Notes under the pieces: model-generated | Databases searched by the model: none | Told to the model about the DNA's origin: nothing | What the model saw: the letters and a program-made list of their open reading frames with translations, nothing else | Position numbers and translations under genes: made by a program | Origin: Methanobacteriota archaeon | Lineage (GTDB): Archaea > Thermoplasmatota > Poseidoniia > Poseidoniales > Poseidoniaceae | NCBI GenBank assembly: GCA_018691345.1 | Contig: JABGTJ010000016.1 | Coordinates: 125-64,124, forward strand | Length of the DNA stretch: 64,000 bases | Direction of reading: 5' to 3' | Shown: positions 33,817-64,000 of the stretch, piece after piece | Layout: every line of letters starts with the position of its first letter | Numbering within the stretch: position 1 is the stretch's first letter

Positions 33817-34155
33817 ATGGATTCGGCAGATGAACTATCACTGGACCCCGATGAAAATGACGACGCCATTTCCAATTTGAGGCCTGTACGACTCCTCCGA
33901 GAAATTTGGAAAGAATTTACTTTTGGAGTAGGCGCATGGGGTACATTGCGACCGCTCCTAACCGCACTCCTTGCAGCAGTCCCCTTCTTATTCCTAGGCC
34001 AACATGCGAATCGACAGCATAGAAAGGCGTTTGACTGGTCGCTCTTACAGATCCCTCTGGCATTGACCATCGTGCTATGGATTGGACTGTGGCTCTATTC
34101 CATCTTTGATGCGTGGAGAGCAGCAACTCAATTGAGTGCTGGACGAAATGACTAA
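33817..34155 (+). CDS. Small two-TM membrane protein
   Basis: The internal ATG is preceded by GGGGAG. TM segments are LLTALLAAVPFLFLG and IPLALTIVLWIGLWLYSIF. Confidence 0.45.
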   Translation: MDSADELSLDPDENDDAISNLRPVRLLREIWKEFTFGVGAWGTLRPLLTALLAAVPFLFLGQHANRQHRKAFDWSLLQIPLALTIVLWIGLWLYSIFDAWRAATQLSAGRND

Positions 34156-34943
34156 GGCCGCCATAATTGGTCAGTGCAGGTAATGCTGCCATCAGCAAGA
34201 CCCGACAAGTCGTTGAGGTCGTCGCTGTCAAACTCTGTCGGCAAATCATTGTCAAAGAAGTTTGCAATACTCGTGGATTCGATGGCCCAGTACATGACAG
34301 AATCTTCGTTGTTTGAATGCCCCGGATGTGAACTGTCTTCGTGGTCGACTGGCGAAGTGTACACCGTATTTACCAATCCCAAGAGGTGGCCAACTTCGTG
34401 AACCAGAACACTGTTCTCAATCTTCTCCGCTGATGGGCGGCGGAAAATATTTTCAGCATCATCGATGGAATCTTTGAAAATCGCCACGGTCGAAGCATCG
34501 ACTGCGACGCCAAGAACACTGGTGTCGTCGTATGTTCCGGCTGGGAACAAAACTTGCCAAGTAAGTGTTGAGCCTGTTTGAGGGGAGGAACTTTTGGCCT
34601 CTTCTCCTAACTGGCGCACATCATTTGCGGACCATACATCATCGATTGCAAAATCAGTTTCTGTGAACACCAAACGTATCCCCATCGACTTATCACACAC
34701 AGATTCAAGTCGTTGTTTGAGCATATCCGTCGATGTTGATTCGGGCAAATAGCCAGGTTCGTAATCGATTTCCACAACCATGGAAGTGTATTTTGAACCG
34801 TCCAAACAGGCGAGTGTTAAGCTCCCAGGAATGCCTCGATCATCCGATATCCCGAGTATACTGTCGCCGCTTAAGCAGCCTGATAGAGCGGGTGTAAGAA
34901 GCAAGATCAGCATGCCAATTCCAAGACGATGGAGTCTGCCCAT
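34152..34943 (-). CDS. Secreted zinc metalloprotease (HExxH zincin), probable lipoprotein
   Basis: Signal peptide with lipobox LSGC. VLVHEVGHLLGL is the HExxH motif, with downstream DSVMY as a possible Met-turn. Confidence 0.7.
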   Translation of the reverse strand: MGRLHRLGIGMLILLLTPALSGCLSGDSILGISDDRGIPGSLTLACLDGSKYTSMVVEIDYEPGYLPESTSTDMLKQRLESVCDKSMGIRLVFTETDFAIDDVWSANDVRQLGEEAKSSSPQTGSTLTWQVLFPAGTYDDTSVLGVAVDASTVAIFKDSIDDAENIFRRPSAEKIENSVLVHEVGHLLGLVNTVYTSPVDHEDSSHPGHSNNEDSVMYWAIESTSIANFFDNDLPTEFDSDDLNDLSGLADGSITCTDQLWRP

Positions 34944-34979
34944 AGTTTGCCGTAGTGGTGGTTATTTTCAAACCATTGC

Positions 34980-35432
34980 TTACCATTCTTCAGGTATTTC
35001 AAGCGGTGAAAATAATTGCCCTGGGCTTTTAGCATTGGAAAGTTGAGTGCGCGAAAGCGCCTCCCAAGGCCGTAAAGCGATCAAACCTTCCGCTAATGAT
35101 GCATCGATTTCGACCAGCGTAACTCGAATAAGCGTTGCTAAAATATCCATTCGGTCTTCATCTATGATTTTGAAGACTTTCTCCAAATCAAACTGGAATC
35201 CGGATTCATCTTCATCAGCGGTATGAATCGGCCACGGATGGGTGACGGTTTCTGGGAACTCTTGTTGAGTTGCCGTTATGTGTTCATCAAGCGAACGAGA
35301 CAGTCCCGCAATATGCTTGCTAAGAACAAGACTGACTTCAATGAGGGGCATGTTGAGCTGATTGATTAAATTCACCATCCGTTCTTGCAGGGTCACCATC
35401 CCCGCAACAGCCGAATTGTTTCCATCGGACAT
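34980..35432 (-). CDS. Small cytoplasmic hypothetical protein, 10 nt downstream of the giant gene
   Basis: 150 aa with no TM or signal sequence. Acidic, ending PLEIPEEW. Co-directional with the flanking genes and tightly spaced. Confidence 0.55.
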   Translation of the reverse strand: MSDGNNSAVAGMVTLQERMVNLINQLNMPLIEVSLVLSKHIAGLSRSLDEHITATQQEFPETVTHPWPIHTADEDESGFQFDLEKVFKIIDEDRMDILATLIRVTLVEIDASLAEGLIALRPWEALSRTQLSNAKSPGQLFSPLEIPEEW

Positions 35433-35441
35433 GTCAGCAAC

Positions 35442-38400
35442 TCACTTCTTCATCGATTCGACGTATTGCCAACCAAAATGGTTCCATTGGTCGAGGGTCC
35501 ATCCTTCCGGAAGACCAGTTGGTGGGAGTGGTGGAGGGGCTTTTACCGGCGCGGCAACTGCTGGTGCAGGAGACACCGATGGTTGAGGTAATGTCAAACC
35601 ACTTGGTGGTGGTAAGTCTTGATCAATTGCCGGAAGCATCTTTGAGGTTTGAAGAGATTCAAGGACTTCTTCCGTTTGGTCTTCCACACCTGCATCTAAT
35701 TCTCCTTCCCGGATTCGCCGGTTCATCACTAACAGCCACATCGCCATGCTGAGAGAAAGGAGAGCAACGATGTAGAGTACGATGCTAAAGGTTCCTTCTT
35801 GGGCTTGCTGAACAAGCGCTTTGCCATCACGAATAGTCTGTTCTTTGATGAACAGTGGGTCGAGTGATGTACGGTCCATTTCCACCTCATCCACCAACAC
35901 TACGAGTCTGAATTCAATACTGTCACCAACATCTGCATCGGCAATTGTAGGTAGAGACCCTGTCAACTCACCACCCGCTGTTGCTACAATGTCAACCCGA
36001 GCGATGTTTTCCCAAAAGCCACCCTCAACAGCACGTTGAAGAACGAGGGATACGTCACCTTTACCGCCTAGATTTCGAACCTCGAAATCAAGGTTGACTG
36101 CTTGTTGTGCTATTGGACTTGGGTCGTCCCATGAGAAACTGCTTGTTGCAGCATTAAGGTCAATACTTGGGCCGAGTAAAGCCAAAGACCATGACGCAAT
36201 TGGCTCGTAAATAGAATTGCCAGTGGTATCGAACGGATTACCTGCAGAATCGGAACCTGAAACCCAAACATCAACCATGTAGGATGGCAAAAGTGTTGTT
36301 GCCCCTGCATCGGTCAAATCAAGATTACCGGTCCAGAAAAATTGCTCGCCAAACGGAGTTGTGTCGGGTAAAGGTACACTACCCCTTGAAATTTCAGCCT
36401 CTCCGGCACGTACACGATAGTGAATAACTGCAGGCTCGTCGAGATCAAATCCGTAGTTATCCAATGTCTCAAGCATAACCAACAGGTCACCGCATGCACC
36501 AATGGAAAGCGGGGAGCCTGAATTGACTTCATCCAAAGTGATGGCGGCAATGGTAGGACGGGTACTGTCAACAGCCAAGCGTACACGCTGAGTTATGGAA
36601 GTTTCATCCATCGCAAAGCCGGGTAAATCGCTCAGATCGAGTTGTAAATCAAGATGTCCTGATGGTACAGATGGAATCAACAAGTCGAGACTAAATTCAC
36701 CATCGTCACGAGTTGAGGTCGTCCATGTATTGTCGTAGTCTCCAAAAACAACGTCAAAAGCACCGGGTGGTGCAGGTGTTTCGTCTTCAGAGAAAAGAAC
36801 TCGGCCATTGACGCGAAGTGCTTGACCTGCACCGATGAGAGTTTCATCAAAATCTGAGTTGTAATGATTCGTTCCATCACGGAGCTCGACTGCTCGAATA
36901 TGGCCTTCCATAGTATCAAACCGGAAATCATTATCAAGGCTCCATGCATCGTTTCCTAGCCCTTCTTTGGTTTCAAAGCATGGAGTTACTTCGATGTCAT
37001 TGCAAGGCAAATCGGTCACCATTATTTTTGGAATAATGAGACTGGTACCGTCGGTATCAAATATTTCGGGGAACGTCCAAGTAAGTTGGAAGCGTGCTAA
37101 AATTTTGATGAGGTTATTATCCGTTTCATCCAAACTCACGCTTGAGTACAGATTCGAGACTGCAATGTTTGCTGAGCCGGACTCCATCACTGCGACTGGT
37201 AAACCATCATGACCCTTTGTCAGGGAGATGAACAAAGAACTTTCATCATCATCATAATCTCCACCAAGAGCCAATTGAATGTACTGAATATCTTCCCAGC
37301 CGTTTCGGTCAGAGAGTACGATTTGTGCTGTGTAAGGAATGCCTGGATGCAGAGGAGCCGAATCGTCGTGGCCGAGGATGGTCGAATTGTCCAAATCAAG
37401 CTCTGGTTCAAACTCAACTCGGATACGGTAGGTGCCCAAATCGTTATCCCAATCAGGTTCAGTTTCGCCAGGTACGTAGCCACATGCGGTATTGCTGTCT
37501 GGGCAAACTGGCCCACCACCCATTGCAATAGCGTTATCCTGGGCGTCTTTGCCAGTGATGAAATACGAAACAACTTGACCATGTTGAAGCATTGAGTCAT
37601 CGATGAGTCCTTCGAAAATATTCAAACCTCCGGTTTGTGTATCCGGTGAATTAAGCACTTTCAATTCATATTCGTTTGAATTCGGTAATCCATCGAAATT
37701 GTAGTCGCTGCAACCAATCGCCTCGCTGGTCTTGCACCCAATCCAATAGTTGAGGGTAATCTGACTTGGAGGGTCTACAGAGTCTTGAATCACGACGCTA
37801 AGCCCTTGACCACCGGGTGCAGGCGGACCTGCGTGGCGTTCTGTACCGTCCGCTGGAGTTGAACCTAAGACCAACGGTGAATTACCGTCGAGTACCAGTC
37901 GTATGGTATTGTATCCTGGGTTCGTGAACATCGAGCCGTTTTTCAATTCTATTGCTTCGACGTAAAATACCATTCCACCCGGTGCAGATTCCATTGGTGA
38001 AGTGATGGTGATGTTGTAAGAACCAAAGGCCGGATTTTGCTCACGTGCTAGTTCGATCGGCTCGCCAATCGGGTCACCGTCATAAGTTACGTTTTGACCT
38101 AAGATACGGAGGGCAAATTGGCCACCCAATGGAGTGAGTTGTGAGTCTTGGAAATGTATGATGCCTGTAAACGAAATCAGATAGCCTCCACGTACCCAAT
38201 CTTGGGAATACAGTTCTCGACCGGTTTCTTCGTACACTCGAAGTCCGTCGAGTTGAATATCGTTTTCGACAATCATGTCCAAAGAATCAGTCTCCCAAGC
38301 AGCGACTGCCTGACCCAAGTCATCATGAACTGAAATCAGTGCCTGCAATTTACTTTCGTCATCCCATGTCCAGTTGACGGACATTGGCATACGGATTGTG

Positions 38401-40835
38401 ACCAAGCCGGTTGGGTCCATCACAGAAGTGCAGTTGGCAACATCAAATTGGACAATACCGTCCGCATCGCTGACGACCGAGCATGTGTCACCCCGTTCCC
38501 ATTCAAAGGCGGGGTTTTCACCGTATGAATTGTCGAGGGCAACAAGAGAACTCATCACTCGGTCTACATCATCGCCTGGTGCGATTCGGACATGCAGGTT
38601 CCTAAATACGCCGTCTGGAGAGATGACTCCACCCTCGATTGATGCATCAATCGCTCGGGTTTGCATCTTGTATGCAATATCTATGTTTGAAATTTTAACT
38701 CGGCCAGAGGTTGCTGCTTTGATTGCGATTGGAATGAGAACATCACCATCACCGTTCTGAGGAATGAGGGTGTTAAACGCTTGAACAAGCGTTGGTTGGA
38801 ACTTCACTTCCGAATTGATGAGCGACATATCACTTGCAACTACAGAAGATTCATTCAAGAAAAGAACCGACTCCCAATCCCAAATCAAATCGTTACCAAC
38901 ATCGATTTTCGGTCGGTCAGGATATCCTTCCTCGTATTCCATGGTGAGCGAATCAATAAGCGGCGTCAGCGTAGCATCCGATGTCGTCATACTAACAGCG
39001 TAACGTATGGTATCGCCTGCTTCTGTCGATGGGAAACTCACTTCTTGGTTGTTCAAAGCAGGTAGCCAAGACGAGCCGTTATCGTTCGAGACTTGGACGA
39101 GAATCGAGGTTCCGGCGGGAACATCTGCTTGCCAATTGGGTCGAACTTTGCCGACTTTTGTACCGGTGACTAAGGGGGTTGAAGTCCAACTGCCAGAAGT
39201 GGTGTATTCTGTAGCGTACTCGACATCAACCCACCATGAAACTGCAGTTGAGCCAATGAGTTGGGCTTTCCAAACAAGTTCCTCACCAGGATAATCAAAA
39301 TGAATGGTCGAATTGGAAGTTACTGGCTCCCAATGCGTGCCGTTGTCAGCAGAAATCCAATAGTCGACACGATCTCCGATGGATGCTGCGGACCAATGGG
39401 TCTGAATGTTCGCAGCAATCACCGGTTCACTTGAGTTGATTACCGGGCCAAGCCATGTGGTTGTACCTGGTGCAGGTGTGGTCTTAAATTGCCAACCAGT
39501 ACCGTATTCACGATAGTAAAGTGTCGAAGATGACCCTGTCGAATAACCACAATCTGCTGTGACAAAACGTGACCCGTCATATTGCAGCCCATAACCAAGT
39601 GAAGAAAGGAGACGTGTACCCGCTTGTGGAACAAGAGAAGTTGAAGAGCCAGATATTGTCCACGCTTCGAGTTGGTCCTTGTCTTGGTACGTTGAGCCTT
39701 TTTGACATCGCATGAAGAACGTTGTTTCGTTCACTTCCAATCCGCGAACTTGTTGCCCGGTCTTACCGCATTCCCAAGAACTGCCTGAAGATGATGAATA
39801 CGAGTACATGTTATCTCCCCGAGTATATGTCCCGTCAGGCGTATTGCTGAATGTATAAGGGACAATCCTTCGCTGTGCATTGTGCACAATCCAAACATCT
39901 TCTGTTGTGCGATCGTAGGCGATTGCGGTATACTCAGAATATTGAGGTGAAACATCGTACGAATCGATACAGGTCCAAACGTCGTCCCGAGAAATATCCA
40001 TCTCTAAAACCCGGTGGTACTGTGTAGGTGCGGAAGAGGAAGAGTGGGATTTGTATCCAGACAAGATGGCGAACATTCGCTCATCGTCGGTAATTGTCCA
40101 GTCGCGGAACCCATAGTTCGCATAGTAAGTACTCGAATGCAAATTTGGAAGAGTACATTGAGCTTGGTCTAATGTAATCACGGATTCTTTCGTAGCATTA
40201 TTTGGATAAAGTCGATGGACAATGTTTTGGAAGGTCGAAGAACTCCATGTCGACATGAACAACCAGTCGTGATGCTTCAGTACAGCACCCTGACTCTGCT
40301 TGTTAAAGTTCGACGAAGTTTTGAGAACTTGTTGAGAGAATCGGCTTTCCGTGGAGTTGGATGTATGGGGTTGTCGAACAGCGTATGAGCCGTTATCGAG
40401 CCAAGCATCAGAGGCTGGATTGACGGTTTCGTCGAAACCGTGTGCAAAGAAATTGGAAGAACTGTTCGCCAAATCAAGGCTCAAATCGCCGCTTCGCGAA
40501 TCGGTTGAGGAAGCGCCTCCTGCAAACCATTCATCACGGTCGTCGGTTACGGTTTGGCTCCAACCAGTAGCCGATGCGCCCGATAGCGTCATCGAGACAT
40601 CGGTCACCAATGCACCCTTCGGCAATGAAATTTCAGCACCAACGTCTGGATTTGCTCCCTGGTACAACGCTACATACTCCGTAGAACCATCACTGAATTC
40701 GTAAATGTGCCGTGAAACGCCTGCAGCGTCGGCAGAACCTACGAAAACTTCCGCTAGTGGTCCCATAGGTGAAAGGACCATGATGAAAAAAAGTACGAAC
40801 ATAATGCCGCGCCCATTCGAAAATTCGTTCTGCAT
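35442..40835 (-). CDS. Giant membrane-anchored surface protein (adhesin-like, beta-rich), function unknown
   Basis: About 1797 aa from the ATG at 40835, which is preceded by a G-rich SD-like tract. The ORF track uses a GTG at 40856. There is a signal/anchor (IMFVLFFIMVLSPMGPLA), a long Ser/Thr/Trp/Tyr-rich ectodomain, a C-terminal TM helix (FSIVLYIVALLSLSMAMWLLV), and a 93-aa tail. Confidence 0.8.
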   Translation of the reverse strand: MQNEFSNGRGIMFVLFFIMVLSPMGPLAEVFVGSADAAGVSRHIYEFSDGSTEYVALYQGANPDVGAEISLPKGALVTDVSMTLSGASATGWSQTVTDDRDEWFAGGASSTDSRSGDLSLDLANSSSNFFAHGFDETVNPASDAWLDNGSYAVRQPHTSNSTESRFSQQVLKTSSNFNKQSQGAVLKHHDWLFMSTWSSSTFQNIVHRLYPNNATKESVITLDQAQCTLPNLHSSTYYANYGFRDWTITDDERMFAILSGYKSHSSSSAPTQYHRVLEMDISRDDVWTCIDSYDVSPQYSEYTAIAYDRTTEDVWIVHNAQRRIVPYTFSNTPDGTYTRGDNMYSYSSSSGSSWECGKTGQQVRGLEVNETTFFMRCQKGSTYQDKDQLEAWTISGSSTSLVPQAGTRLLSSLGYGLQYDGSRFVTADCGYSTGSSSTLYYREYGTGWQFKTTPAPGTTTWLGPVINSSEPVIAANIQTHWSAASIGDRVDYWISADNGTHWEPVTSNSTIHFDYPGEELVWKAQLIGSTAVSWWVDVEYATEYTTSGSWTSTPLVTGTKVGKVRPNWQADVPAGTSILVQVSNDNGSSWLPALNNQEVSFPSTEAGDTIRYAVSMTTSDATLTPLIDSLTMEYEEGYPDRPKIDVGNDLIWDWESVLFLNESSVVASDMSLINSEVKFQPTLVQAFNTLIPQNGDGDVLIPIAIKAATSGRVKISNIDIAYKMQTRAIDASIEGGVISPDGVFRNLHVRIAPGDDVDRVMSSLVALDNSYGENPAFEWERGDTCSVVSDADGIVQFDVANCTSVMDPTGLVTIRMPMSVNWTWDDESKLQALISVHDDLGQAVAAWETDSLDMIVENDIQLDGLRVYEETGRELYSQDWVRGGYLISFTGIIHFQDSQLTPLGGQFALRILGQNVTYDGDPIGEPIELAREQNPAFGSYNITITSPMESAPGGMVFYVEAIELKNGSMFTNPGYNTIRLVLDGNSPLVLGSTPADGTERHAGPPAPGGQGLSVVIQDSVDPPSQITLNYWIGCKTSEAIGCSDYNFDGLPNSNEYELKVLNSPDTQTGGLNIFEGLIDDSMLQHGQVVSYFITGKDAQDNAIAMGGGPVCPDSNTACGYVPGETEPDWDNDLGTYRIRVEFEPELDLDNSTILGHDDSAPLHPGIPYTAQIVLSDRNGWEDIQYIQLALGGDYDDDESSLFISLTKGHDGLPVAVMESGSANIAVSNLYSSVSLDETDNNLIKILARFQLTWTFPEIFDTDGTSLIIPKIMVTDLPCNDIEVTPCFETKEGLGNDAWSLDNDFRFDTMEGHIRAVELRDGTNHYNSDFDETLIGAGQALRVNGRVLFSEDETPAPPGAFDVVFGDYDNTWTTSTRDDGEFSLDLLIPSVPSGHLDLQLDLSDLPGFAMDETSITQRVRLAVDSTRPTIAAITLDEVNSGSPLSIGACGDLLVMLETLDNYGFDLDEPAVIHYRVRAGEAEISRGSVPLPDTTPFGEQFFWTGNLDLTDAGATTLLPSYMVDVWVSGSDSAGNPFDTTGNSIYEPIASWSLALLGPSIDLNAATSSFSWDDPSPIAQQAVNLDFEVRNLGGKGDVSLVLQRAVEGGFWENIARVDIVATAGGELTGSLPTIADADVGDSIEFRLVVLVDEVEMDRTSLDPLFIKEQTIRDGKALVQQAQEGTFSIVLYIVALLSLSMAMWLLVMNRRIREGELDAGVEDQTEEVLESLQTSKMLPAIDQDLPPPSGLTLPQPSVSPAPAVAAPVKAPPPLPPTGLPEGWTLDQWNHFGWQYVESMKK
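35445..35516 (-). other. C-terminal Trp-rich tail motif GLPEGWTLDQWNHFGWQYVESMKK
   Basis: Homologous to the terminus of the 4832-9802 protein. The juxtamembrane GELDAGVED also matches GELTDAGEE in that protein. Confidence 0.7.
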
Positions 40836-40901
40836 GTCTGCCCCCCATCCTACCACAGGCGCTATGGCCTTTGAATTATACCCCTACAGGTTCGGTCGAA
40901 A

Positions 40902-54048: not shown

Positions 54049-54107
54049 ATTCTCACCTCGCCCTTTTCTACTCTTCAACACTTCCGCTCATGTGAGCAGA
54101 AAGTGCA

Positions 54108-57100: not shown

Positions 57101-58529
57101 CGTTGTTCGTGACTGTATTATCGTACAGAGTCGCTGAGGACATGAACATGTGAATGGCAGGACACGCAAAGTCTCCGTCGTACATTTGGGAGTTGCATGT
57201 ACCGGTGTTGTTTGAAATTTGATTGTTCGCCAAATAGAGTCGAGAAGCAGTCGGTGTAGGTACGTTCCATCCTTGGTCAAGATAGTGGTACTCTCCTATG
57301 AGAACCGCTTCCTTTGCAGTGTCTTGGATGGTATTGTTTTCCGCAATGACATCGGATGTGCCGTAGATCCACAGACCGTTCCAACCGCCAATTGGGCCGA
57401 TAACGTTGTTGTTGGCCGTTACGGTGGATGAGCGAATACCAAAACCTGAACCTGCCGATGCACCCGAGATTATATTATCCTCTGCAACGACAATAGCACC
57501 GTCATAGGCAGTGATTCCCGAACCATCTGCAGTCGTAATGGTGTTGCGATTAATAATCAAGGTGTGGTCAATCGTACCGGTAACTTTGTGAGAATTGGTA
57601 TCAATACCACTGCATTTGACGTTAATCGTAGAGTCGGTAATCGAGCCGGAACTTTCTTTCATGAAGAAACCATAGGAATTGTCCTTAATGTCAAGGTATG
57701 AGAAGTCCACATATGAACTCTCAACATAGACCAGACTTCGACCGTCGTTACCACATTCAGCTTCCGTATTTCCGGTGAAAACTGAATTCGACACCTCCAT
57801 AGTTGCTAAAATTCCTGCACCTGCTCCATAAGCACGGACTGCTGCTGCATCGAATCCATTGCCGTCAACACCCAGTGTGAACGTTGAATCAGAAATGGAT
57901 GGCGCTGCGAGGTCTATGGCCATAATATTTGAAGTGTTGATATTAGCAAATGAAAGCCCTTGCGCTGTTGTCGTTGAACCGTCGAAAACAAGAGCACCAT
58001 ATTGCTTCCCACTCACTTGGTTTGTCTCAAATGGGTGACCGTAAGCGTTCTCAAAATGAGCGTACTTGATTGAGGTGATTGCTTGATCGATGGTCGAACG
58101 AATTATCATTCCCGAACCGCATGCAGTATCAGCGTTGTAGTTTGGATTATTGGTGTTGTTCGAATAGCACCGTCCTTGAACAGTGTAGTTCGTTGGTGTG
58201 GACCAGACAAACCGAGCTTGATTACCAGAGGAGCCGGAACTTGCACCACAAGCAGTGTCTCCGATACAGATTGCGCCTTCGACGTCGATGTAATATCCGT
58301 AAGGAATATTGATTACAGTACCAGCATTGACGATGAGTTTAGCACCTTCAGCAACTACAACGTCGCCGTTGAGGTTCATCGTACCTGTCCAGGTTTCAGT
58401 TCCAGAAATGATTCCGGACTTCGTTTCATTTACGGCAGATGCTGTAGGAATGGCGATTAGCCCAGTCAATGTTGAGAGCAAAAGGAGTGCAACCAACGAT
58501 ATGCTTTTGTGAGATGTTGTGTTCTTCAA
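54108..58529 (-). CDS. Giant membrane-anchored surface protein with an N-terminal right-handed parallel beta-helix (PbH1/NosD-like) region and Ig-like domains
   Basis: 1473 aa with a TTG start preceded by GAAAGAGG. Signal peptide (ISLVALLLLSTLTGLIAIPTASA). Repeated short N/G/T-rich turns typical of beta-helices (NNVIGPIGGWNGLWIYGTSDVIAENNTIQD, NTVTNNAGDGMRIKASIVNAQRNTIE). DGYDNDGDTKVDSADADC motif. A TM helix (VMLIVAVVIGVIALLGAGMFFF) is followed by a 90-aa tail. Confidence 0.85.
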   Translation of the reverse strand: MKNTTSHKSISLVALLLLSTLTGLIAIPTASAVNETKSGIISGTETWTGTMNLNGDVVVAEGAKLIVNAGTVINIPYGYYIDVEGAICIGDTACGASSGSSGNQARFVWSTPTNYTVQGRCYSNNTNNPNYNADTACGSGMIIRSTIDQAITSIKYAHFENAYGHPFETNQVSGKQYGALVFDGSTTTAQGLSFANINTSNIMAIDLAAPSISDSTFTLGVDGNGFDAAAVRAYGAGAGILATMEVSNSVFTGNTEAECGNDGRSLVYVESSYVDFSYLDIKDNSYGFFMKESSGSITDSTINVKCSGIDTNSHKVTGTIDHTLIINRNTITTADGSGITAYDGAIVVAEDNIISGASAGSGFGIRSSTVTANNNVIGPIGGWNGLWIYGTSDVIAENNTIQDTAKEAVLIGEYHYLDQGWNVPTPTASRLYLANNQISNNTGTCNSQMYDGDFACPAIHMFMSSATLYDNTVTNNAGDGMRIKASIVNAQRNTIEVSGFAANISLYDDNYGNKYGSIAYFSENTYTNATQVYNITESRVTVQSEYIPDAIPTDYDGDGNDDSLSYPVSLQWLGPECPYVLDECLQVPPTAIMPPAFMPLALEVVENSTVFSYADLQNFDSSKIHVQNQNSAWGSQVREGELVRYQVKAQNSNVVDATVIIRDASGLPLYTLTTDAFGFTPEVSLPSDFLLDRNWNHNVGETNVQIPGETDAQGNPIFIDENSCADGYDNDGDTKVDSADADCTGGRELPFYTVEAYKFGKGQKDFNFVLSGGIDDVINLVNLKPSVTVSQNDGFSFATTASLSGSSWDGISGPYALDQIAYENQFGLIKRVEIQPPGSTDWYSALDTSGANGMITKSVHPFKTWSFDWDLSAHPEGEGDVTFRVRSYDGLDYSPVEVRKYKLNLVAPTTLVNSPADGSSHTTGKVTFTGTASDPYTGTWGSDINSIWFDINGPNGYTANFDVSGSTAWAYDWIFQELQTGQYDFRIWASDSDFCNTKSSWTDCEHETRSININTDNAIPFVQLSEPLNSDIIRASETQLIQGVALDNDGLVTRVEISIFDLASGVPINNGPDPVTNFAPNGAWYTTWDTSDLIHDQQYELVIKAWDGKDFSNEERIRIKIDNPTDADNIVPDFNSTGWASTITLFCDSNPTKLDRCNGGISIDLMEHFSDADGADDGKTNGLSFDIFDDPTNLDDDFYGDYLTLSDKGVVSYDPAYVTGLSNEVSEWSLVGLMFVARDAYDSVAYSYKVNVVVVEVTFSVVRDNTGLLGPDSPAYFSGQGLPNSLVEARFDSLKGVRINQTRVNADATWTMEISSSQLSGMEGTSNIIFEMDDQVYTAPGENSNAVFKLSISDGAESNSNVMLIVAVVIGVIALLGAGMFFFQVEYEGMDELNEVAQSEQEASSADPYAWAKARQDPVSIPSAAVATTPVAAQPIAAAAQPAAAPQSSQHPGWLWDSESNSWVPDPNYTPDQ
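54111..54179 (-). other. C-terminal Trp-rich tail motif HPGWLWDSESNSWVPDPNYTPDQ
   Basis: Shares the GWxx[DE]...W core with the termini of the 4832-9802 and 35442-40856 proteins. An Ala/Pro-rich linker precedes it. Confidence 0.5.
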
Positions 58530-58593
58530 AATAGACGCCTCTTTCCATCCCTATTCTCACTACGAATATAATACTGCGCCTCTGATGACATTT

Positions 58594-58664: not shown

Positions 58665-58723
58665 ACATTTTTATTCGACTTCAAACGCTGGAATGCAACT
58701 GCGTCGTGCATTTGATTCAATAT

Positions 58724-59944
58724 TCAGCAAGGTTGAGATTGAGATTCAAGAGAAGAATACCAAGCCATCGCCTGCAGTTGACCGTAGCCCCAACTGTCAT
58801 CATGTGTTGATGAATCGTCGTATTTTAGGGCGGAATTCATCAGTGCATTCTTGACGGCATCAATACATGAGCCATCTGAAGTCGAAGATGCCTTGTATTC
58901 CGGGAACGCTTCGAGTAGGAGCGAAAGGGCACCCGTTACAAACACGGTCGAATCGGATGTTCCACTGCTCGAGAACCATGTATCACCTACACCAGTGCTG
59001 ATGATGTTCTGACCTGGTGCGATGACTTCTGGCTTCATGTGCGGATGTTGCCGAAAATCGTCGTTCGGAAGAGTTTGCGAACCAGATGATGAATTGGCCC
59101 AAACCTTTTGCGACTCTGTTGATGCTCCCACTGTGATGACACGTGGCACATTGCCTGGCACTGACACCAAACCGTCATCCGCACTGCCACCATCGTTTCC
59201 CGCTGCAGCAACCACGAATATTCCAGAGTCAACAGCTCTCCGAACTGCAGAAACACTACTACCCTCTGTGTGCATTTCGACGTTTTGTTCTCCTCCAAGC
59301 GAGAGCGAGATGATATCGGCTTGGTATTCGTCTTGGCACCAACGAATGGATTGGGCGACGGTATCCTCTGAACCGCTGTTCATGTCATCCTCATCAGCAC
59401 CCAAGGCAGCAACCATCGCCAGATCTACATTCGGCGCAACACCGAGTTGGTGGTCATTTGAGACAAGAATGCCTGCCATCAGGGTCCCGTGAGCTACGTA
59501 TCCGTAGTCCACCGGTGAGGTTGATGCACCAATCATGTCCTTGAATGTGACTTGAAGATTCGAAAAAGCCGGGTTACTGAGGTCAATTCCAGTATCAACC
59601 ATACAGACACGAACGCCTTCGCCGGACAAGCCCATATCGGACAAATCCTCAAATTGAGACTGTTCGATGGCCCATTCCGATTTAGGTGGAGGTATTTCAA
59701 GGAAAAGCAACCCTGAATTCCACACATAGAGCATAACAATAACCAGTACTGAAAAAATGACACCGTTGGTTACGAGCATCTTCCGACTGCGCATGCGAGA
59801 AACGGGTACTGCTTGCATTGGAGCCCAACCAGTAACCTCTGAACGCCAATGGTTTTGATAGCCTACGGCGGATGAATCGATTACCGAAAGGATTCGCGAA
59901 TCATCCGGTTCCGGTAGAAGTTCCACGTTGTCGAGTCCTTCCAT
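58724..59944 (-). CDS. Membrane-anchored subtilisin-like (S8) serine protease
   Basis: N-terminal TM anchor (GVIFSVLVIVMLYVW). The triad contexts are VCMVDTGID, AHGTLMAG and SGTSDSTVFVTG. Confidence 0.85.
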   Translation of the reverse strand: MEGLDNVELLPEPDDSRILSVIDSSAVGYQNHWRSEVTGWAPMQAVPVSRMRSRKMLVTNGVIFSVLVIVMLYVWNSGLLFLEIPPPKSEWAIEQSQFEDLSDMGLSGEGVRVCMVDTGIDLSNPAFSNLQVTFKDMIGASTSPVDYGYVAHGTLMAGILVSNDHQLGVAPNVDLAMVAALGADEDDMNSGSEDTVAQSIRWCQDEYQADIISLSLGGEQNVEMHTEGSSVSAVRRAVDSGIFVVAAAGNDGGSADDGLVSVPGNVPRVITVGASTESQKVWANSSSGSQTLPNDDFRQHPHMKPEVIAPGQNIISTGVGDTWFSSSGTSDSTVFVTGALSLLLEAFPEYKASSTSDGSCIDAVKNALMNSALKYDDSSTHDDSWGYGQLQAMAWYSSLESQSQPC

Positions 59945-60001
59945 TGCTACGCCCCCTATGTGAGTTCATTCAGAACTCTGGATATAATGGGTTGTCTGAA
60001 A

Positions 60002-63000
60002 TCAGAACCGAGAGCCCTTGTTGCTGCGACGGGAGATACGTACTCCGCCGTACAGTACCAATGCACCGAGAATTGCGATTACAATGGTGAACAGGCTCGA
60101 CTCTTCAGACGGGTCATCGATGTAGTATTCGATTTTGAAATCAAACTCATCGACTGGCTTATCGGTGAATTCACTGTCATCGCCAACAATCTCAATGCGG
60201 ACATCGTATCGCACCGTACCAGAAGCATCAGACGCCTCCAAGTCAAAGGTGACGTTTGTCTGTCCCTCTGGACCAACCGAAACGGTTTGAGCACCTAGGC
60301 TTCGACCGCCTTGGACACTAGCAGAAACAACGACATTGTCGCTGCCCAGGAAACCAGAGTTCTTGATTGGAATGATCAACATACCCGCTCGGTCAGCGAT
60401 GTTACCGGACAATGTTTTGATCTCGCCCTGGTCGACAGAGAGGTCAATATTAGCCCTGACGATTTCCACATCGAAGGTTTCCGTGGTTACTCCATCTTCA
60501 CTTGTGACGGTAACAGTGACAACCTTTGAACCGGAATCAAAATCTTCTGGAGCAAATGCAGTAAACATTTGTGAGCGAGTATCGCCCTTAGCGATGGTAA
60601 TCACCGAAGTCATTGGAGTAACTTCCCAACCTTCAGGAATATTATCTGAAAGTTCGATTGTATACGAGTCGTCACCGTTACCGGTGTTCTCGAGAACAAA
60701 TCCAAACATACTGTTTCCGCCTGCACCAATTCCTATTGATTCGTCTTCTTCAGAAGTTTCCAATCCGTAGATTTGTGGCACTTGAACAGTTACTGATATT
60801 TCACTCGAAGGAGTGTTGTCCGTAAGCATACGAACCTTCAACGTATGTGGCTCTTCAAGGTGCCAAGCAGTCGACTGGTTGGCGACGGTGATACGAATAC
60901 CAACGGTTGCAGAGGACTGAACCGATGTATCGTTGGTGCCGTTACCGATTCCGAGCGAAACTTCGTAGGAGTCCACGTAAGTTGAACCGTTCTTGAACTC
61001 AATCTTCCAATCAGCTTCGTCAGGTGAAACGACAATCTGCCCAAGAACATCAAAGACTTGCACAGTTTCAGTACCCTCGTAATTCAGTTCTAAATCGAAC
61101 TCAATGTGTTGATATCCCTCTCCTTCTTCAACAGCGGTAAAGGCCAACTCTTCGTCAACGGTTGCGTTCACAACGCTACCTTCGACCATCGCAATGGATG
61201 TATCGGAATTGATGCTTCGTGTGTAGGATAGGGACACTGGAGAGCGTCCTTCAGCGATGGTTGTTACTGCACCGCCAATGTACTCCATTTCCAGTTCCAA
61301 ATCGTGTTGGATTGTAATGAACGATGAATCCATTTCAATTTCAGAAGCAGGCATGAGGACGCTGATTGTACCATCAGCACCAACTGGCAAGTCCCATTCG
61401 ATTTCATCGCCAATAGCGATTGTTACAACTGCTGTTTCGTTCATGTAGATTGAACCTGCACTTGCCGAACCTGCGTGATACTCATCAATTTTGATGCCAG
61501 TCCACGAGGTTGTAAGGTCAAGCCATCCACCAAGAGACATCTCCAAATCAAGTGTGGCACCATCTGAGATGCTTGCATCAAGAAGACCAATCGCAACGCC
61601 ACCACCGTTTTCGCCGGGGTTTGCTTCGGTAACTACAACGATCCATTCTCCTGGAGCAATAACCGTCGACCAAGTAAGTTGGTCGTTTGCGTATTGAGAG
61701 GTGACCACAATAGCTTCACCTGCCATGCCGGAACTTGGGAACAAAGTCACAATCGAACCATTCAACCGTTCAGCGTCGTTGATATCGGTAACGTTACCTG
61801 AAACAGTAACATTTCCTGCAGTCATCTCGATATCGTGGGATTCTGGTGACGAGTAAACAGGGTAAGCACTGGTGTTGGAAACATTGTAAACTTCTGTGCT
61901 AAATCCTTCTTTCATGACGGAGATTTGGTATTCGTCTTGGATAGGAACAAACAGCGACCAAACACCAAATTCATCAGTTGTCACATTGGTATCAATTTCA
62001 GTGTTGTTGACACCGAGGATTGTGACGGTGGTATTTGAGACGCCTTCTGTGCCGCCAGGTAGGTTGTTATCATCTAGGTCCCAGAAGACCTTTCCACCGA
62101 TTTCTACATTGAGAACGGGTGACACAACACCTAGATTGAGAACACCATCAACAGCATCATCGGTAGAGAATGGAGTATCAAATGTGTCCAGGCTCCACTG
62201 ACGTTGAGGTTCTGTTTGGTTAAGGAACATGCTCCAAGTACCAGGCATGATGGTTTCGCTTACATTACCGTCCACATTGGATTTCGAAAGAGTAACGTTT
62301 CCAAATCCATCGTGACTGACGAGTGTGATTCGAACATCACTCATGTTGGTGTCTGTGTACAATTCCTGAACTTGGAAGTTTATGGTTACAACTTCTATGG
62401 AAGTGAAGCCGAGGTCGGTTCGCATCGAAGCATCTTCACTTACTGTGAACGCTTCACGGTAGGTCTCCATGGTGTCGTTCGAGGCAGAGAACGGAGCAAC
62501 AATTGCAACCCAGTCTCCCGCAGGAACATAGGAGGCAAAACTACCGTTCGCATCGGAAGCAATGTTGTGCCACAAATCATCTGCAGCGTTGCGTAGCAAG
62601 AATTGTTTCTCGACTCCATCGCCTGAGGAGTTCGTGAGGACTCCAGTCACAAGGAATTCATTTCGTAGAGCGAACGAGACTGAGTCTTCGTATGCTTCAA
62701 TTCCAACAATTAGGGTTTCAAAGAACGATTCGCCAATCAAGTAATAGTCGGTTGCATTTTCATCTGTGGCTTCAGTCGCATTGAAATCAATGCTGTAAAG
62801 ACCAGGTTCAAGGACCACTGTAATGTTACCTGCGGACGAATAATCATCTGCAGTGAAGTTGTATTGTTGACCGTGGTTGTTCAATGGAACCAATGAGAAT
62901 GCAGGTGAAACACCCGTTCCATTTGCAAAGACACCATCTGCGCCTGAATCCATGAAGATGTTGAGCTCGATGGAAAGATGCTCAGGGTTTGCGAACAGTT

Positions 63001-64000
63001 CGATTACGGTAGGCAGTGTGCCTGAATCAGTAAGAATTGCGTAATCCATCACACTTGTTGAGTTGAGTAGGTCGTCATTGACGGTGAAGTCCCAGTCCCC
63101 TGCTTGTAGGTCGAAAACGAATCCACCTTGCTCGTCAATGATCGTTCTCCATTCAAGTCCTGTAGAATCAGTAGCAATGACCTCTTGTGCTGCATATCCA
63201 GGCGCCAAAGAATCCCACAGTGAGGAATTGTCGTAAAGGAAGACGAGACCTGTAGCCGATACAGTCGGTTCGAGATACATGAGGCCGAGGTTCATCTCAG
63301 CGTCACCAGCGAGTTCAATCAGTTGGCCTGCCGACATTTGTGAAACGAGACTTTGTGCTGTCATGTGGAAGGTGTTTCCACTCGGTAAGCGCATGCTGAA
63401 GTTTCCATCGGTTTCAACGGTCGTTGAGAAATCGAGATCGTCTGAAGCAAAACTGATTTCCAGTCCCGCAGCAGGTTGACTCTGTTCCAACTTGTAGTTC
63501 TCTTCCTGAGATGCCCAGTCTGCATAGGTGTAATCACCTTGGAACAAACCGCCATCGACAACACGAATGCTTCCATTGACCCATGTTGCAATTGCATAGG
63601 CGCTGCTCATCGTAACGTCTTCTTGGTCCACTATGATGTAGTCAAACAGGATGTAGTCATCACCCGATTCATCTGAAATCGTGTAAGCACCCATCGGCAG
63701 TTCGATGTAAACCATACCGGTTTCATCAGAAGTGGCATTAAGTGGTGCAAGTTGAGGATCATCGTTGGTAAATGTGACTGTGCGTTCTGAAACGTCTGCA
63801 TAAGGCGTCTGAGTTTGCGGGTCAACTGGAGAAGTCAACTGCAACGAAACATCGTACATTTCCGGGACATCCATAACAAGCGAGAAGTTTTCAGACTCTC
63901 CACGTGCATAGATGGTTTCATTCAACTCATACCAGCCGTCGTTATCTACGTCAACACGGTAGAAGTATTCACCAGTCGCGAGAGGACCGTATGAGAAATT
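60002..64000 (-). CDS. Giant surface protein (5-prime end beyond the window) with CarboxypepD_reg/SdrD-B-like and CARDB/COG1470-like Ig domains and a C-terminal TM anchor
   Basis: The reading frame stays open from 63925 to the window edge, so the listed TTG start is not the real start. Domain signatures include IGGKVFWDLDDNNLPGGTEGVSNTTVTILG (SdrD-B-like) and GFVLENTGNGDDSYTIELSDNIPEGWEV (COG1470-like). The C-terminus is a TM helix plus basic stub (LFTIVIAILGALVLYGGVRISRRSNKGSRF). Confidence 0.8.
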   Translation of the reverse strand, partial: NFSYGPLATGEYFYRVDVDNDGWYELNETIYARGESENFSLVMDVPEMYDVSLQLTSPVDPQTQTPYADVSERTVTFTNDDPQLAPLNATSDETGMVYIELPMGAYTISDESGDDYILFDYIIVDQEDVTMSSAYAIATWVNGSIRVVDGGLFQGDYTYADWASQEENYKLEQSQPAAGLEISFASDDLDFSTTVETDGNFSMRLPSGNTFHMTAQSLVSQMSAGQLIELAGDAEMNLGLMYLEPTVSATGLVFLYDNSSLWDSLAPGYAAQEVIATDSTGLEWRTIIDEQGGFVFDLQAGDWDFTVNDDLLNSTSVMDYAILTDSGTLPTVIELFANPEHLSIELNIFMDSGADGVFANGTGVSPAFSLVPLNNHGQQYNFTADDYSSAGNITVVLEPGLYSIDFNATEATDENATDYYLIGESFFETLIVGIEAYEDSVSFALRNEFLVTGVLTNSSGDGVEKQFLLRNAADDLWHNIASDANGSFASYVPAGDWVAIVAPFSASNDTMETYREAFTVSEDASMRTDLGFTSIEVVTINFQVQELYTDTNMSDVRITLVSHDGFGNVTLSKSNVDGNVSETIMPGTWSMFLNQTEPQRQWSLDTFDTPFSTDDAVDGVLNLGVVSPVLNVEIGGKVFWDLDDNNLPGGTEGVSNTTVTILGVNNTEIDTNVTTDEFGVWSLFVPIQDEYQISVMKEGFSTEVYNVSNTSAYPVYSSPESHDIEMTAGNVTVSGNVTDINDAERLNGSIVTLFPSSGMAGEAIVVTSQYANDQLTWSTVIAPGEWIVVVTEANPGENGGGVAIGLLDASISDGATLDLEMSLGGWLDLTTSWTGIKIDEYHAGSASAGSIYMNETAVVTIAIGDEIEWDLPVGADGTISVLMPASEIEMDSSFITIQHDLELEMEYIGGAVTTIAEGRSPVSLSYTRSINSDTSIAMVEGSVVNATVDEELAFTAVEEGEGYQHIEFDLELNYEGTETVQVFDVLGQIVVSPDEADWKIEFKNGSTYVDSYEVSLGIGNGTNDTSVQSSATVGIRITVANQSTAWHLEEPHTLKVRMLTDNTPSSEISVTVQVPQIYGLETSEEDESIGIGAGGNSMFGFVLENTGNGDDSYTIELSDNIPEGWEVTPMTSVITIAKGDTRSQMFTAFAPEDFDSGSKVVTVTVTSEDGVTTETFDVEIVRANIDLSVDQGEIKTLSGNIADRAGMLIIPIKNSGFLGSDNVVVSASVQGGRSLGAQTVSVGPEGQTNVTFDLEASDASGTVRYDVRIEIVGDDSEFTDKPVDEFDFKIEYYIDDPSEESSLFTIVIAILGALVLYGGVRISRRSNKGSRF

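What the first reader, a model, noticed from the sequence alone, without database searches (positions are those of the whole stretch)
34152..64000. A 30-kb surface-protein island: giant-protein operons, proteases, a pilin-like trio and a STAND regulator
From about 34 kb to the window edge, nearly every gene encodes a secreted or anchored product.

One minus-strand run holds the TSP3-repeat giant (1917 aa), an adhesin-like giant (~1800 aa), a 150-aa cytoplasmic protein and a zincin lipoprotein.

A second minus-strand run holds a CARDB/SdrD-like giant (over 1330 aa, truncated by the window edge), an anchored subtilase, a beta-helix giant (1473 aa) and a wHTH-STAND-TPR ATPase.

Between the two runs lie an MBL hydrolase and three translationally coupled pilin-like genes.

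The mix of adhesion-type folds, Ca-binding repeats, two proteases, pilin-like subunits and a dedicated NTPase regulator looks like one coordinated cell-surface capture or degradation apparatus, not a random collection. I know of no described system with this composition.
Basis: partly seen in the sequence, partly recalled or inferred. Interest (0 to 1): 0.75.

Follow-up and report, generated by a model that had tools for sequence, protein, structure and literature searches.

The report
Conserved cell-surface gene neighbourhood of MGII archaea

Summary
The genes are real and mostly as described. There are three corrections.

1. The giant cut by the window edge is not a stand-alone CARDB/SdrD adhesin. 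It is the C-terminal 1,331 aa of a ~3,190-aa AglB/STT3 oligosaccharyltransferase.
2. The region is not compositionally distinct from the rest of the window.
3. "Adhesin-like" for the 1,804-aa protein has no domain support.

The window is from Ca. Poseidoniaceae (Marine Group II a).

Gene order and strand are identical in all 80 GTDB species-representative loci fetched and in six further lineages, including Thalassarchaeaceae (MGIIb), at only 27-56% protein identity. The giants are 1:1 full-length orthologues. This is order-wide core genome, not a variable or chimeric island.

The decisive control cuts the other way. MGIIa/MGIIb collinearity continues through the housekeeping flank (C15-NUDIX, GT2, DnaJ, arcTGT). 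Synteny therefore does not single out the surface genes as one system.

Tight spacing supports three operons:
- AglB-S8-beta-helix-STAND
- MBL-pilin trio
- TSP3 giant-1804-p150(-zincin)

My best reading is a cell-envelope glycoprotein neighbourhood. A single apparatus remains possible but unproven. Interest is moderate.

The parts
34152..34943 (-). 263-aa putative zincin lipoprotein (lipobox LSGC, HEVGH). Peripheral member found in MGIIa only.
   Evidence: Peptidase_M10 hit E 6e-4, below cutoff. Sequence read directly. Absent in MGIIb contigs L099, L104, L105, L107 and L109.
34980..35432 (-). 150-aa acidic cytoplasmic protein of unknown function. Conserved next to the giants in both MGIIa and MGIIb.
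   Evidence: No TM, no family hit. Orthologue is 42-50% identical in MGIIb. Retained where G1804 is absent.
35442..40856 (-). 1,804-aa surface giant: signal peptide, about 1,650-aa ectodomain with two Asp-boxes, TM at 1687-1705, Pro-rich cytoplasmic tail ending LPEGWTLDQWNHFGWQY.
   Evidence: No Pfam, NCBIfam or PDB match. About 42% identical to MGIIb over nearly its full length. Absent in L078, L080, L082, L088 and L090.
40902..46655 (-). 1,917-aa secreted Ca-binding TSP3-repeat giant: signal peptide, no anchor, 19 DxDxDG motifs.
   Evidence: Named TSP3 repeat protein by NCBI. 43% identical over its full length to MGIIb.
46656..46889 (.). 234-bp divergent intergenic region between the TSP3-giant operon and the MBL-pilin operon. 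Contains the conserved CTTATGAGG at 46711-46719.
   Evidence: Gap table. The k-mer is present in 63 of 71 species.
46890..47708 (+). 272-aa cytoplasmic metallo-beta-lactamase-fold hydrolase. First gene of the plus-strand operon.
   Evidence: Lactamase_B_2 E 5e-15. Only generic MBL matches in NCBIfam and PDB. 51-56% identical in MGIIb.
47756..48841 (+). 361-aa type-IV-pilin-like protein (RRDQRA|VSEVLGVVMML...).
   Evidence: Pilin_N and DUF7289 hits, both below cutoff. N-terminus conserved across the order.
48838..51048 (+). 736-aa pilin-like protein: 60-residue N-terminal helix plus tandem beta-sandwich domains and a highly conserved C-terminal domain. The family is restricted to Poseidoniales.
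   Evidence: DUF7289 28.0 bits against a cutoff of 27. AF2 pLDDT 84.3, pTM 0.83. No specific fold match, TM <= 0.14. 132 hits, about 12 full-length clusters, among 1.84e9 representatives.
51045..51521 (+). 158-aa pilin-like protein (RRDEHA|AATELGYIFTFLLG...).
   Evidence: The orthologue in L103 has a weak DUF7266 hit. 4-nt overlap with the preceding gene.
51523..54081 (-). MalT-like STAND NTPase (weak wHTH, AAA_16 P-loop, TPR sensor). Likely start is the ATG at 54048 (841 aa). Last gene of the AglB operon.
   Evidence: The most conserved protein of the block: 62-98% within MGIIa, 49-55% to MGIIb and L095. No defence-system match.
54108..58591 (-). Beta-helix/Big_7 surface giant (1,494 aa in other contigs): signal peptide, TM at 1355-1373, cytoplasmic tail with the order-wide motifs DPYAWAK and HPGWLWD-x5-WVPDPNY. 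In the window a 1-nt deletion puts the ATG at 58591 out of frame, and the ORF reads from the TTG at 58529.
58724..59944 (-). 406-aa type-II membrane-anchored subtilase (D117/H152/S330). Its best named relative is mycosin.
   Evidence: Peptidase_S8 E 1.5e-36. TIGR03921 118 bits, below cutoff. TM at 54-72.
60002..64000 (-). C-terminal 1,331 aa (sequon-rich Ig-like ectodomain plus a C-terminal TM) of a ~3,190-aa AglB/STT3 oligosaccharyltransferase. The catalytic N-terminal part lies beyond the window edge.
   Evidence: Full gene at L097:362-9943, 100% identical over the window part. STT3 E 3e-15, AglB_core-like, WWDYG at 964. TIGR04154 172 bits. Aligns to A. fulgidus AglB 3WAJ. JGI names it Stt3. 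Sequons 2.7x expectation.

Best explanation
The region is a vertically inherited, order-wide core chromosomal neighbourhood of Ca. Poseidoniales (Marine Group II). It is made of three adjacent operon-like units that build and service the cell's glycoprotein surface.

Unit R (minus strand) has four genes. The first is a giant AglB oligosaccharyltransferase: extra N-terminal TMs, the STT3 core, about 2,100 aa of Ig-like ectodomain and a C-terminal anchor. It is followed by a membrane-anchored subtilase, a TM-anchored beta-helix giant and a MalT-type STAND regulator.

Unit M (plus strand) has a cytoplasmic MBL hydrolase and three translationally coupled type-IV-pilin-like proteins.

Unit L (minus strand, divergent from M) has a secreted Ca-binding TSP3 giant, a TM-anchored 1,804-aa giant and a small cytoplasmic protein. 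In MGIIa it also has a zincin lipoprotein.

Inferred mechanism:
- The giants are exported by Sec and N-glycosylated by AglB. They form the exposed coat that mediates contact with particles and polymers.
- The two membrane-bound proteases mature these proteins or digest bound protein.
- The pilin-like trio forms a short membrane-rooted fibre or anchor, using a prepilin peptidase and assembly ATPase encoded elsewhere.
- The STAND protein regulates transcription.

What is shown: gene content, domain identities, operon-like spacing and order-wide orthology and synteny. What is inferred: the shared function, the glycosylation of these particular substrates, and the regulation.
For: Taxon and orthology: source names are Poseidoniaceae, Thalassarchaeaceae and Poseidoniales.

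Synteny: order and strand are identical in 80 species loci, 58 of which hold all nine core genes. The same holds in L091-L095 and L101-L103.

The giants align over their full length at 36-43% identity between the two families. That fits conserved structural components, not fast-shuffling adhesins.

AglB identity.

Sequons: N-x-S/T sequons are enriched in the AglB ectodomain (2.7x) and in G1917 (1.55x).

Operon-like spacing: gaps of -4, -4, 9, 26, 36, 45, 47 and 57 nt.

Native DNA: native composition, no tRNA and no defence-family hits.

The pilin-like nature of the trio.

Literature: thrombospondin-type genes in Poseidoniales are already read as adhesion markers (PMC6461757).
Against: No expression, proteomic or interaction data were available.

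Collinearity extends into housekeeping genes, so linkage is not specific to this block.

The beta-helix giant, the subtilase and the small pilin-like proteins are not sequon-enriched.

No glycosyltransferase or flippase lies inside the three units. The nearest is a GT2 about 2 kb outside.

No pilus ATPase, platform protein or prepilin peptidase lies within the window or within 10 kb in any locus.

No 8- or 10-nt word common to many species was found in both of the two promoter regions compared.

G1804 and the zincin are dispensable in some lineages.
Confidence: 0.6

Rival explanations
1. One dedicated apparatus. All 12-13 products assemble into, or serve, a single capture and degradation machine: pilin-like anchors tether the Ca-binding and beta-helix giants, the proteases digest captured protein, and the STAND ATPase acts as its dedicated regulator.
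For: Perfect co-occurrence and order across the whole order.

The pil736 family is found only where the block is found.

The anchored giants have conserved cytoplasmic tail motifs that could be read by a cytoplasmic TPR partner.

The heptapeptide WVPDP(S/N)Y is shared by pil736 and the beta-helix tail.
Against: The same collinearity holds for the adjacent housekeeping genes.

G1804 and the zincin are lost in some lineages without other changes.

The G1804-type tail motif also occurs on a subtilase giant 25 kb away, outside the block.

No 8- or 10-nt word common to many species was found in both of the two intergenic regions compared.

The two WVPDPxY copies sit on opposite sides of the membrane by predicted topology.
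Confidence: 0.2
2. Coincidental neighbourhood. These are unrelated surface, regulatory and hydrolase genes that sit together only because Poseidoniales chromosomes are highly collinear. Each operon has its own separate role.
For: MGIIa/MGIIb collinearity runs for at least 45 kb, from arcTGT to AglB, across unrelated housekeeping genes.

Other secreted giants are scattered among housekeeping genes in the left half of the window.
Against: Nine of 12 consecutive genes, covering about 27 of 30 kb, encode exported or anchored proteins.

The protein-glycosylating enzyme heads one of the operons.

Tight operon spacing is preserved at about 30% identity.
Confidence: 0.17
3. A horizontally acquired or hypervariable 'metagenomic island' of giant surface proteins, or a defence island built around the STAND and MBL genes, as seen in many marine microbes.
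For: Giant surface-protein genes and STAND NTPases are typical contents of such islands. The MBL gene gives a precomputed Anti-Pycsar Apyc1 Pfam hit.
Against: Composition is native.

There are no tRNA or integrase genes.

Orthologues are 1:1 in every lineage examined.

The STAND protein is the most conserved gene of the block.

PADLOC gives only generic TPR, MBL and subtilase hits.

The identical protein is indexed in 42 assembly blocks, and the contigs shown have the same gene order.
Confidence: 0.03

Closest known systems
Archaeal N-glycosylation (agl) loci anchored by aglB, e.g. the Haloferax volcanii aglB cluster (from my own knowledge), and AglB of Archaeoglobus fulgidus (PDB 3WAJ)
   Same: The block contains a bona fide STT3/AglB with the DPWY..R and WWDYG motifs, aligned to 3WAJ. 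It lies next to genes for large exported proteins that carry N-x-S/T sequons.
   Different: The enzyme is about 3,190 aa. Characterised AglBs are roughly 600-1,050 aa (from memory). It has about 8 extra N-terminal TMs, a 2,100-aa Ig-like ectodomain and a second C-terminal anchor. It scores below the TIGR04154 cutoff (172 against 450 bits). No glycosyltransferase or flippase genes lie in the same operon.
Minor-pilin or pseudopilin operons of type IV filament systems (bacterial FimU-PilVWX and GspHIJK, modular pilins such as S. sanguinis PilB in PMC8179133, archaeal Pilin_N/DUF1628 loci)
   Same: Three translationally coupled genes with class-III-type N-termini. One large 'modular' member has a long N-terminal helix followed by beta-sandwich modules.
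   Different: No assembly ATPase, platform protein or prepilin peptidase within 10 kb in any locus. The -2 residue is not basic in two of the three proteins. The 736-aa family is confined to Poseidoniales. Its fold has no specific PDB match.
MalT/AfsR-type STAND transcription regulators
   Same: AAA_16 P-loop NTPase plus a MalT-like TPR sensor region.
   Different: The DNA-binding domain is N-terminal and only weakly detected, as a Crp-like wHTH. Ligand and target are unknown.
Mycosin (MycP), the membrane-anchored subtilase of type VII secretion
   Same: It is the best named match of the 406-aa subtilase (118 bits). Both are single-pass membrane-tethered S8 proteases encoded next to secreted substrates.
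   Different: The match is below the family cutoff (278.75). The anchor here is N-terminal, not C-terminal. There are no T7SS components.
Hypervariable surface-protein 'metagenomic islands' of marine prokaryotes
   Same: Giant exported proteins clustered in one region.
   Different: This block is conserved gene for gene across a whole order and has native composition.

Membership tests
AglB/STT3 oligosaccharyltransferase (edge-truncated giant) | STT3 multi-TM catalytic domain detectable by profile | tested here: met
   PF02516 E 3e-15 at residues 407-677 of the full gene L097:362-9943. The same hit appears in MGIIb orthologues. It aligns to A. fulgidus AglB 3WAJ, E 4e-9.
AglB/STT3 oligosaccharyltransferase (edge-truncated giant) | WWDYG motif and the EL1 acidic motif (DPW/Y..R) | tested here: met
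   WWDYG at 964 and GGSDPWYMKR at about 416-425.
AglB/STT3 oligosaccharyltransferase (edge-truncated giant) | Score above the curated family threshold (TIGR04154 archaeo_STT3) | tested here: not met
   172 bits against a cutoff of 450. It is a divergent AglB, so it is filed as STT3 superfamily and not as that subfamily.
AglB/STT3 oligosaccharyltransferase (edge-truncated giant) | Transfers lipid-linked glycan to Asn in N-x-S/T | not testable with these tools
   Biochemical assay or glycoproteomics is needed.
Archaeal type IV pilin-like proteins (trio) | Class III signal peptide: short charged N-terminus, small residue at -1, then about 20 hydrophobic residues | tested here: met
   All three proteins, conserved in MGIIa and MGIIb. 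The -2 residue is basic only in the 361-aa protein.
Archaeal type IV pilin-like proteins (trio) | Profile match above cutoff (Pilin_N/DUF7289) | tested here: inconclusive
   pil736 scores 28.0 on DUF7289 against a cutoff of 27. pil361 is below cutoff on both models. pil158 has no hit in the window, and its orthologue has a weak DUF7266 hit.
Archaeal type IV pilin-like proteins (trio) | Extended N-terminal alpha-helix followed by a beta-rich globular part | tested here: met
   AF2 model of pil736: helix 9-69, then beta domains, pLDDT 84.3. The other two were not modelled.
Archaeal type IV pilin-like proteins (trio) | Linked assembly ATPase, platform protein and prepilin peptidase | tested here: not met
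   None in the 64-kb window or within 10 kb in any locus. They may be encoded elsewhere, for example in the archaellum operon noted in PMC6461757.
STAND NTPase regulator (MalT-like) | P-loop NTPase of AAA_16/STAND type plus a repeat sensor domain | tested here: met
   AAA_16 E 3e-9, TPR_12 E 2e-21, TPR_MalT E 2e-10, and NCBIfam MalT E 1e-11, far below the equivalog cutoff.
STAND NTPase regulator (MalT-like) | DNA-binding effector domain | tested here: inconclusive
   HTH_Crp_2 E 2.3e-4, 21.5 bits against a cutoff of 27.
Subtilase S8 | S8 domain with the Asp/His/Ser triad | tested here: met
   PF00082 E 1.5e-36. D117 (VDTG), H152 (HGT) and S330 (GTS) read from the sequence.
Metzincin/M10 zincin (263-aa lipoprotein) | HExxHxxGxxH zinc site and Met-turn, with a profile match above cutoff | tested here: inconclusive
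   HEVGHLLGL is present but the third His is not at the canonical position. PF00413 scores 20.2 bits against a cutoff of 24.
Horizontally acquired or variable genomic island | Deviant composition, patchy distribution, tRNA or integrase borders | tested here: not met
Single functional gene cluster (one apparatus) | Gene linkage conserved beyond the background collinearity of the genome | tested here: not met
   The flanking housekeeping genes keep the same order between MGIIa and MGIIb.

The most novel reading that the evidence does not exclude
The block is one order-specific envelope machine with outside-in signalling.

The giant AglB both glycosylates and, through its 2,100-aa ectodomain, scaffolds a coat of TSP3, beta-helix and 1,804-aa giants. 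The three pilin-like proteins tether this coat.

The anchored giants carry conserved Trp-rich cytoplasmic tails (DPYAWAK, PGWxWD..WVPDP, LPxGWxxxQWxxYG). The TPR domain of the STAND ATPase, or the 150-aa protein, reads these tails and couples particle contact to gene expression.
Probability: 0.1. Interest if true: 0.8.

Novelty: new variant of a known kind. Interest (0 to 1): 0.45.

Why it matters
Marine Group II archaea are among the most abundant archaea in surface oceans. They are uncultured, and they are thought to live by attaching to and degrading high-molecular-weight organic matter. Nothing is known about their cell envelope.

This block is about 35 kb and is conserved in every lineage examined. 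It names concrete candidates for the surface coat, its glycosylating enzyme (an unusually large AglB fusion), its proteases and a possible regulator. It also gives a family-specific marker, the 736-aa pilin-like protein.

If the parts prove to act together, this would be a new kind of archaeal surface system. If they do not, it is still the best starting list for metaproteomic and cryo-ET work on MGII envelopes.

The work also shows that, in this lineage, conserved synteny alone is weak evidence for a functional system.

Tried and rejected
1. Mobile, foreign or defence island. Rejected on composition, absence of tRNA, PADLOC results and universal orthology.

2. Assembly chimera. Rejected: the identical protein is indexed in 42 assembly blocks, and the 10 contigs shown have the same gene order.

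3. Assigning a fold or family to G1804, the G1917 central region, the pil736 C-terminal domain and the beta-helix C-terminal half by segment-wise Pfam at E <= 1. Nothing found. PDB sequence searches also found nothing.

4. The first AF2 model of pil736, with 12 sequences, was poor (pLDDT 52). A 38-sequence alignment including MGIIb gave pLDDT 84. Foldseek against PDB then returned only generic jelly-roll and beta-sandwich matches with TM <= 0.14.

5. A search for an 8- or 10-nt word present in many species in both the G1917/MBL intergenic region and the region upstream of the beta-helix gene. None found. The conserved k-mers upstream of the beta-helix gene turned out to be coding sequence of the true N-terminus.

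6. The sigma-70 promoter and terminator scan is uninformative for an archaeon.

7. The hits of G1917 and of the beta-helix tail to Myxococcus gliding proteins CglD and GltJ are judged to be repeat or low-complexity matches. They are not evidence of motility.

8. The third homologue search, with the MGIIb G1804 N-terminus, returned only fragments.

9. Literature searches for this cluster, for AglB in MGII and for DUF7289 found nothing specific.

Full report
**What is in the sequence**

ORF listing and hydropathy and N-terminus inspection give 12 genes between 34152 and 64000.

On the minus strand, in transcription order:
- G1917, 1,917 aa, 40902-46655.
- G1804, 1,804 aa, 35442-40856.
- p150, 150 aa, 34980-35432.
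- A 263-aa lipoprotein, 34152-34943.

On the plus strand:
- An MBL hydrolase, 46890-47708.
- Three genes of 361, 736 and 158 aa, 47756-51521.

On the minus strand again, in transcription order:
- The edge-truncated giant, 60002 to beyond 64000.
- A 406-aa subtilase, 58724-59944.
- A beta-helix giant, 54108-58529.
- A STAND protein, 51523-54081.

Intergenic gaps are short within each run: 45, 9 and 36 nt; 47, -4 and -4 nt; 57, 194 and 26 nt. A 234-nt divergent region lies between G1917 and MBL. The ends of pil158 and STAND converge with a 1-nt gap.

**Domain checks**

Pfam confirms the MBL fold, Peptidase_S8, Beta_helix plus Big_7, and AAA_16 plus TPR_12 and TPR_MalT with a weak N-terminal Crp-like HTH.

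G1917 has only a sub-threshold TSP3_bac hit. It carries 19 DxDxDG calcium-binding motifs, and NCBI names it a thrombospondin type 3 repeat protein.

The lipoprotein has a lipobox and HEVGH, but its M10 hit is sub-threshold.

G1804 has no match in Pfam, NCBIfam or PDB, even when split into segments. It has only two Asp-box motifs, so 'adhesin-like' is unverified.

The three plus-strand proteins have conserved class-III-type N-termini: R/K-rich, then A/G, then VSEVLGV.., VSAAVATV.. or AATELGY... They also give Pilin_N and DUF7289 hits.

An AlphaFold2 model of the 736-aa protein, built on a 38-sequence alignment, reached pLDDT 84.3 and pTM 0.83. It shows a 60-residue N-terminal helix followed by several beta-sandwich domains. 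Foldseek found only generic jelly-roll matches with TM <= 0.14.

**The missed enzyme**

Contigs of the same species that extend past the window edge show that the truncated gene is 3,189-3,195 aa long and carries PF02516 STT3.

The full protein (L097:362-9943) is 100% identical to the window part. Its layout is as follows:
- About 16 predicted TM segments in the first 770 aa.
- STT3 at 407-677, E 3e-15.
- An AglB_core-like domain.
- WWDYG at 964.
- About 2,100 aa of CarboxypepD_reg and other Ig-like domains.
- A C-terminal TM.

It aligns to Archaeoglobus fulgidus AglB (3WAJ), including the GG.DPWY..R motif. It scores 172 bits on TIGR04154, below the 450 cutoff. JGI names it 'asparagine N-glycosylation enzyme membrane subunit Stt3'.

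The 'CARDB/SdrD-like giant' is therefore the ectodomain of a giant oligosaccharyltransferase. That ectodomain has 2.7 times the expected number of N-x-S/T sequons.

**Origin, and whether this is an island**

Homologues of the 736-aa protein are named Ca. Poseidoniaceae and Poseidoniales.

GC content is flat across the window. Tetranucleotide usage of 34-64 kb matches that of 1-34 kb (r = 0.95; 5.8% of random half-splits are at least as different). There are no tRNA or Rfam hits.

The left half of the window encodes housekeeping genes: adk, GAPDH, PheRS-beta, RNase HII, GluRS, S15, arcTGT and DnaJ. It also holds three more exported proteins, among them a 1,656-aa subtilase giant.

The exact 736-aa protein is indexed in 42 blocks of the assembly collection. 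The 10 contigs shown all carry the same gene order. The region is native DNA and not a chimera.

**Synteny**

A scan of one genome per GTDB species, using an alignment of the 736-aa family, returned 80 loci. All are Poseidoniales, and they include the 2012 MG-II genome CM001443.1.

tblastn of the window proteins shows the same order and strands in every locus, with no violations. All nine core genes are present in 58 loci, and the rest are cut by contig ends.

Median identities are 74% for STAND, 77% for MBL, 68% for G1917, 60% for the beta-helix giant, 57% for pil736 and 40% for the AglB ectodomain.

A profile search of 1.84 billion cluster representatives found only 132 hits, about 12 of them full-length clusters. 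The pil736 family is therefore narrow.

The most distant members belong to Thalassarchaeaceae (MGIIb) and other Poseidoniales. Their contigs show the same ten-gene order, including the STT3 giant.

Identities between the two families are 27-56%, and the giants align over their full length. G1804 is missing in one MGIIa clade, where p150 directly follows G1917.

**The control**

Five MGIIb contigs extend to the left of the block (L099, L104, L105, L107, L109). They show G1917, G1804, p150, C15-NUDIX, p210, GT2, p330, DnaJ, p745 and arcTGT in exactly the window's order. Only the zincin lipoprotein is absent.

Collinearity between the two families thus spans at least 45 kb and includes unrelated housekeeping genes. 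It does not discriminate the surface genes from their neighbours.

No 8- or 10-nt word common to many species was found in both the G1917/MBL intergenic region and the region upstream of the beta-helix gene.

**Interpretation**

The evidence supports an ancestral, core-genome neighbourhood of three operon-like units. These encode the N-glycosylating enzyme, several of the largest exported proteins, two membrane-bound proteases, three pilin-like proteins and a MalT-type regulator.

The most economical function is construction and upkeep of the glycoprotein surface used for attachment and extracellular proteolysis. This is consistent with the published view of MGII as particle-associated protein degraders with thrombospondin-type adhesion genes (PMC6461757; PMC6336850).

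The claim that all products form one apparatus is possible but not demonstrated. I put it at about 0.2.

A defence or mobile island is excluded.

No paper in the searchable library describes this block, an AglB of MGII, or DUF7289.

**Leads worth following**

The TM-anchored giants share a tail design: TM, acidic patch, Pro/Ala-rich linker and a terminal Trp-rich motif.

The beta-helix tail motifs DPYAWAK and HPGWLWD-x5-WVPDPNY are conserved in both families.

G1804 ends in LPEGWTLDQWNHFGWQY. The subtilase giant at 4832-9802, outside the finding, ends in LPIGWSMEQWQHYGQQW. If these tails bind a common cytoplasmic partner, for example a TPR protein, the functional unit would be defined by the tail and not by the 34-kb boundary.

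**Verdict**

- Novelty: a new variant of known kinds, namely an agl-type surface-glycoprotein locus and a pilin-like operon, with an unusually large AglB fusion.
- Interest is moderate, 0.45.

Noticed in passing
window 60002-64000 (-) and beyond; full gene at L097:362-9943: The AglB/STT3 oligosaccharyltransferase is about 3,190 aa. It has about 8 extra N-terminal TMs, a 2,100-aa sequon-rich Ig-like ectodomain and a second C-terminal anchor, and it is conserved in MGIIa and MGIIb. This is far larger than characterised AglBs (600-1,050 aa, from memory).
   Followed up: yes
window 4832-9802 (-), 35442-40856 (-), 54108-58529 (-): Three TM-anchored giants share a cytoplasmic tail design: an acidic patch, a Pro/Ala-rich linker and a terminal Trp-rich motif. 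G1804 (LPEGWTLDQWNHFGWQY) and the distant 1,656-aa subtilase giant (LPIGWSMEQWQHYGQQW) have nearly the same ending. The beta-helix tail motifs DPYAWAK and HPGWLWD..WVPDPNY are conserved order-wide.
   Followed up: partly
window 50920-50945 (+) and 54125-54150 (-): The heptapeptide WVPDP(S/N)Y occurs in the invariant C-terminal domain of the 736-aa pilin-like protein (predicted extracellular) and at the end of the beta-helix giant's tail (predicted cytoplasmic). Chance expectation in this window is roughly 1e-4 to 1e-3 (my own rough estimate from typical residue frequencies, not a tool result). The motif was found post hoc and is unexplained.
   Followed up: no
window about 58540-58591 (-): Relative to other contigs of the same species, the window has a 1-nt deletion in the first 21 codons of the beta-helix gene. 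The conserved ATG start (1,494-aa product) is therefore out of frame, and the ORF reads from a TTG (1,473 aa). This is either a sequencing or assembly error or a strain variant. The signal peptide is unaffected.
   Followed up: partly
L051 (NZEQ01000036.1): A contig filed under 'Verrucomicrobiales bacterium isolate ARS100' carries the complete archaeal block (pil736 57% identical, all ten genes in order). The contig is evidently mis-binned.
   Followed up: no
window 46711-46719: CTTATGAGG in the divergent G1917/MBL intergenic region is present in 63 of 71 species. It is a candidate promoter or regulatory element.
   Followed up: no
window 14865-17285 (+) and 26188-28425 (+): Two further exported proteins (806 and 745 aa, each with a signal peptide and a C-terminal TM) lie among the housekeeping genes. 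They have no family match and carry 2-3 times the expected N-x-S/T sequons. p745 is also conserved at the same position in MGIIb.
   Followed up: partly
L078, L080, L082, L088, L090; L099, L104, L105, L107, L109: Lineage-specific losses. The 1,804-aa giant is absent in one MGIIa clade, where p150 follows G1917 directly. The zincin lipoprotein is absent in all MGIIb contigs examined.
   Followed up: yes
window 31063-32094 (-): A GT2 glycosyltransferase with two C-terminal TMs (Dol-P-sugar synthase-like) lies about 2 kb left of the block and keeps this position in MGIIb. It is possibly part of the same N-glycosylation theme.
   Followed up: no
window 46890-47708 (+): The MBL hydrolase carries a precomputed Pfam hit to PF23023 (Anti-Pycsar Apyc1, a cyclic-nucleotide phosphodiesterase fold). 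It is always the first gene of the pilin-like operon, and its substrate is unknown.
   Followed up: no
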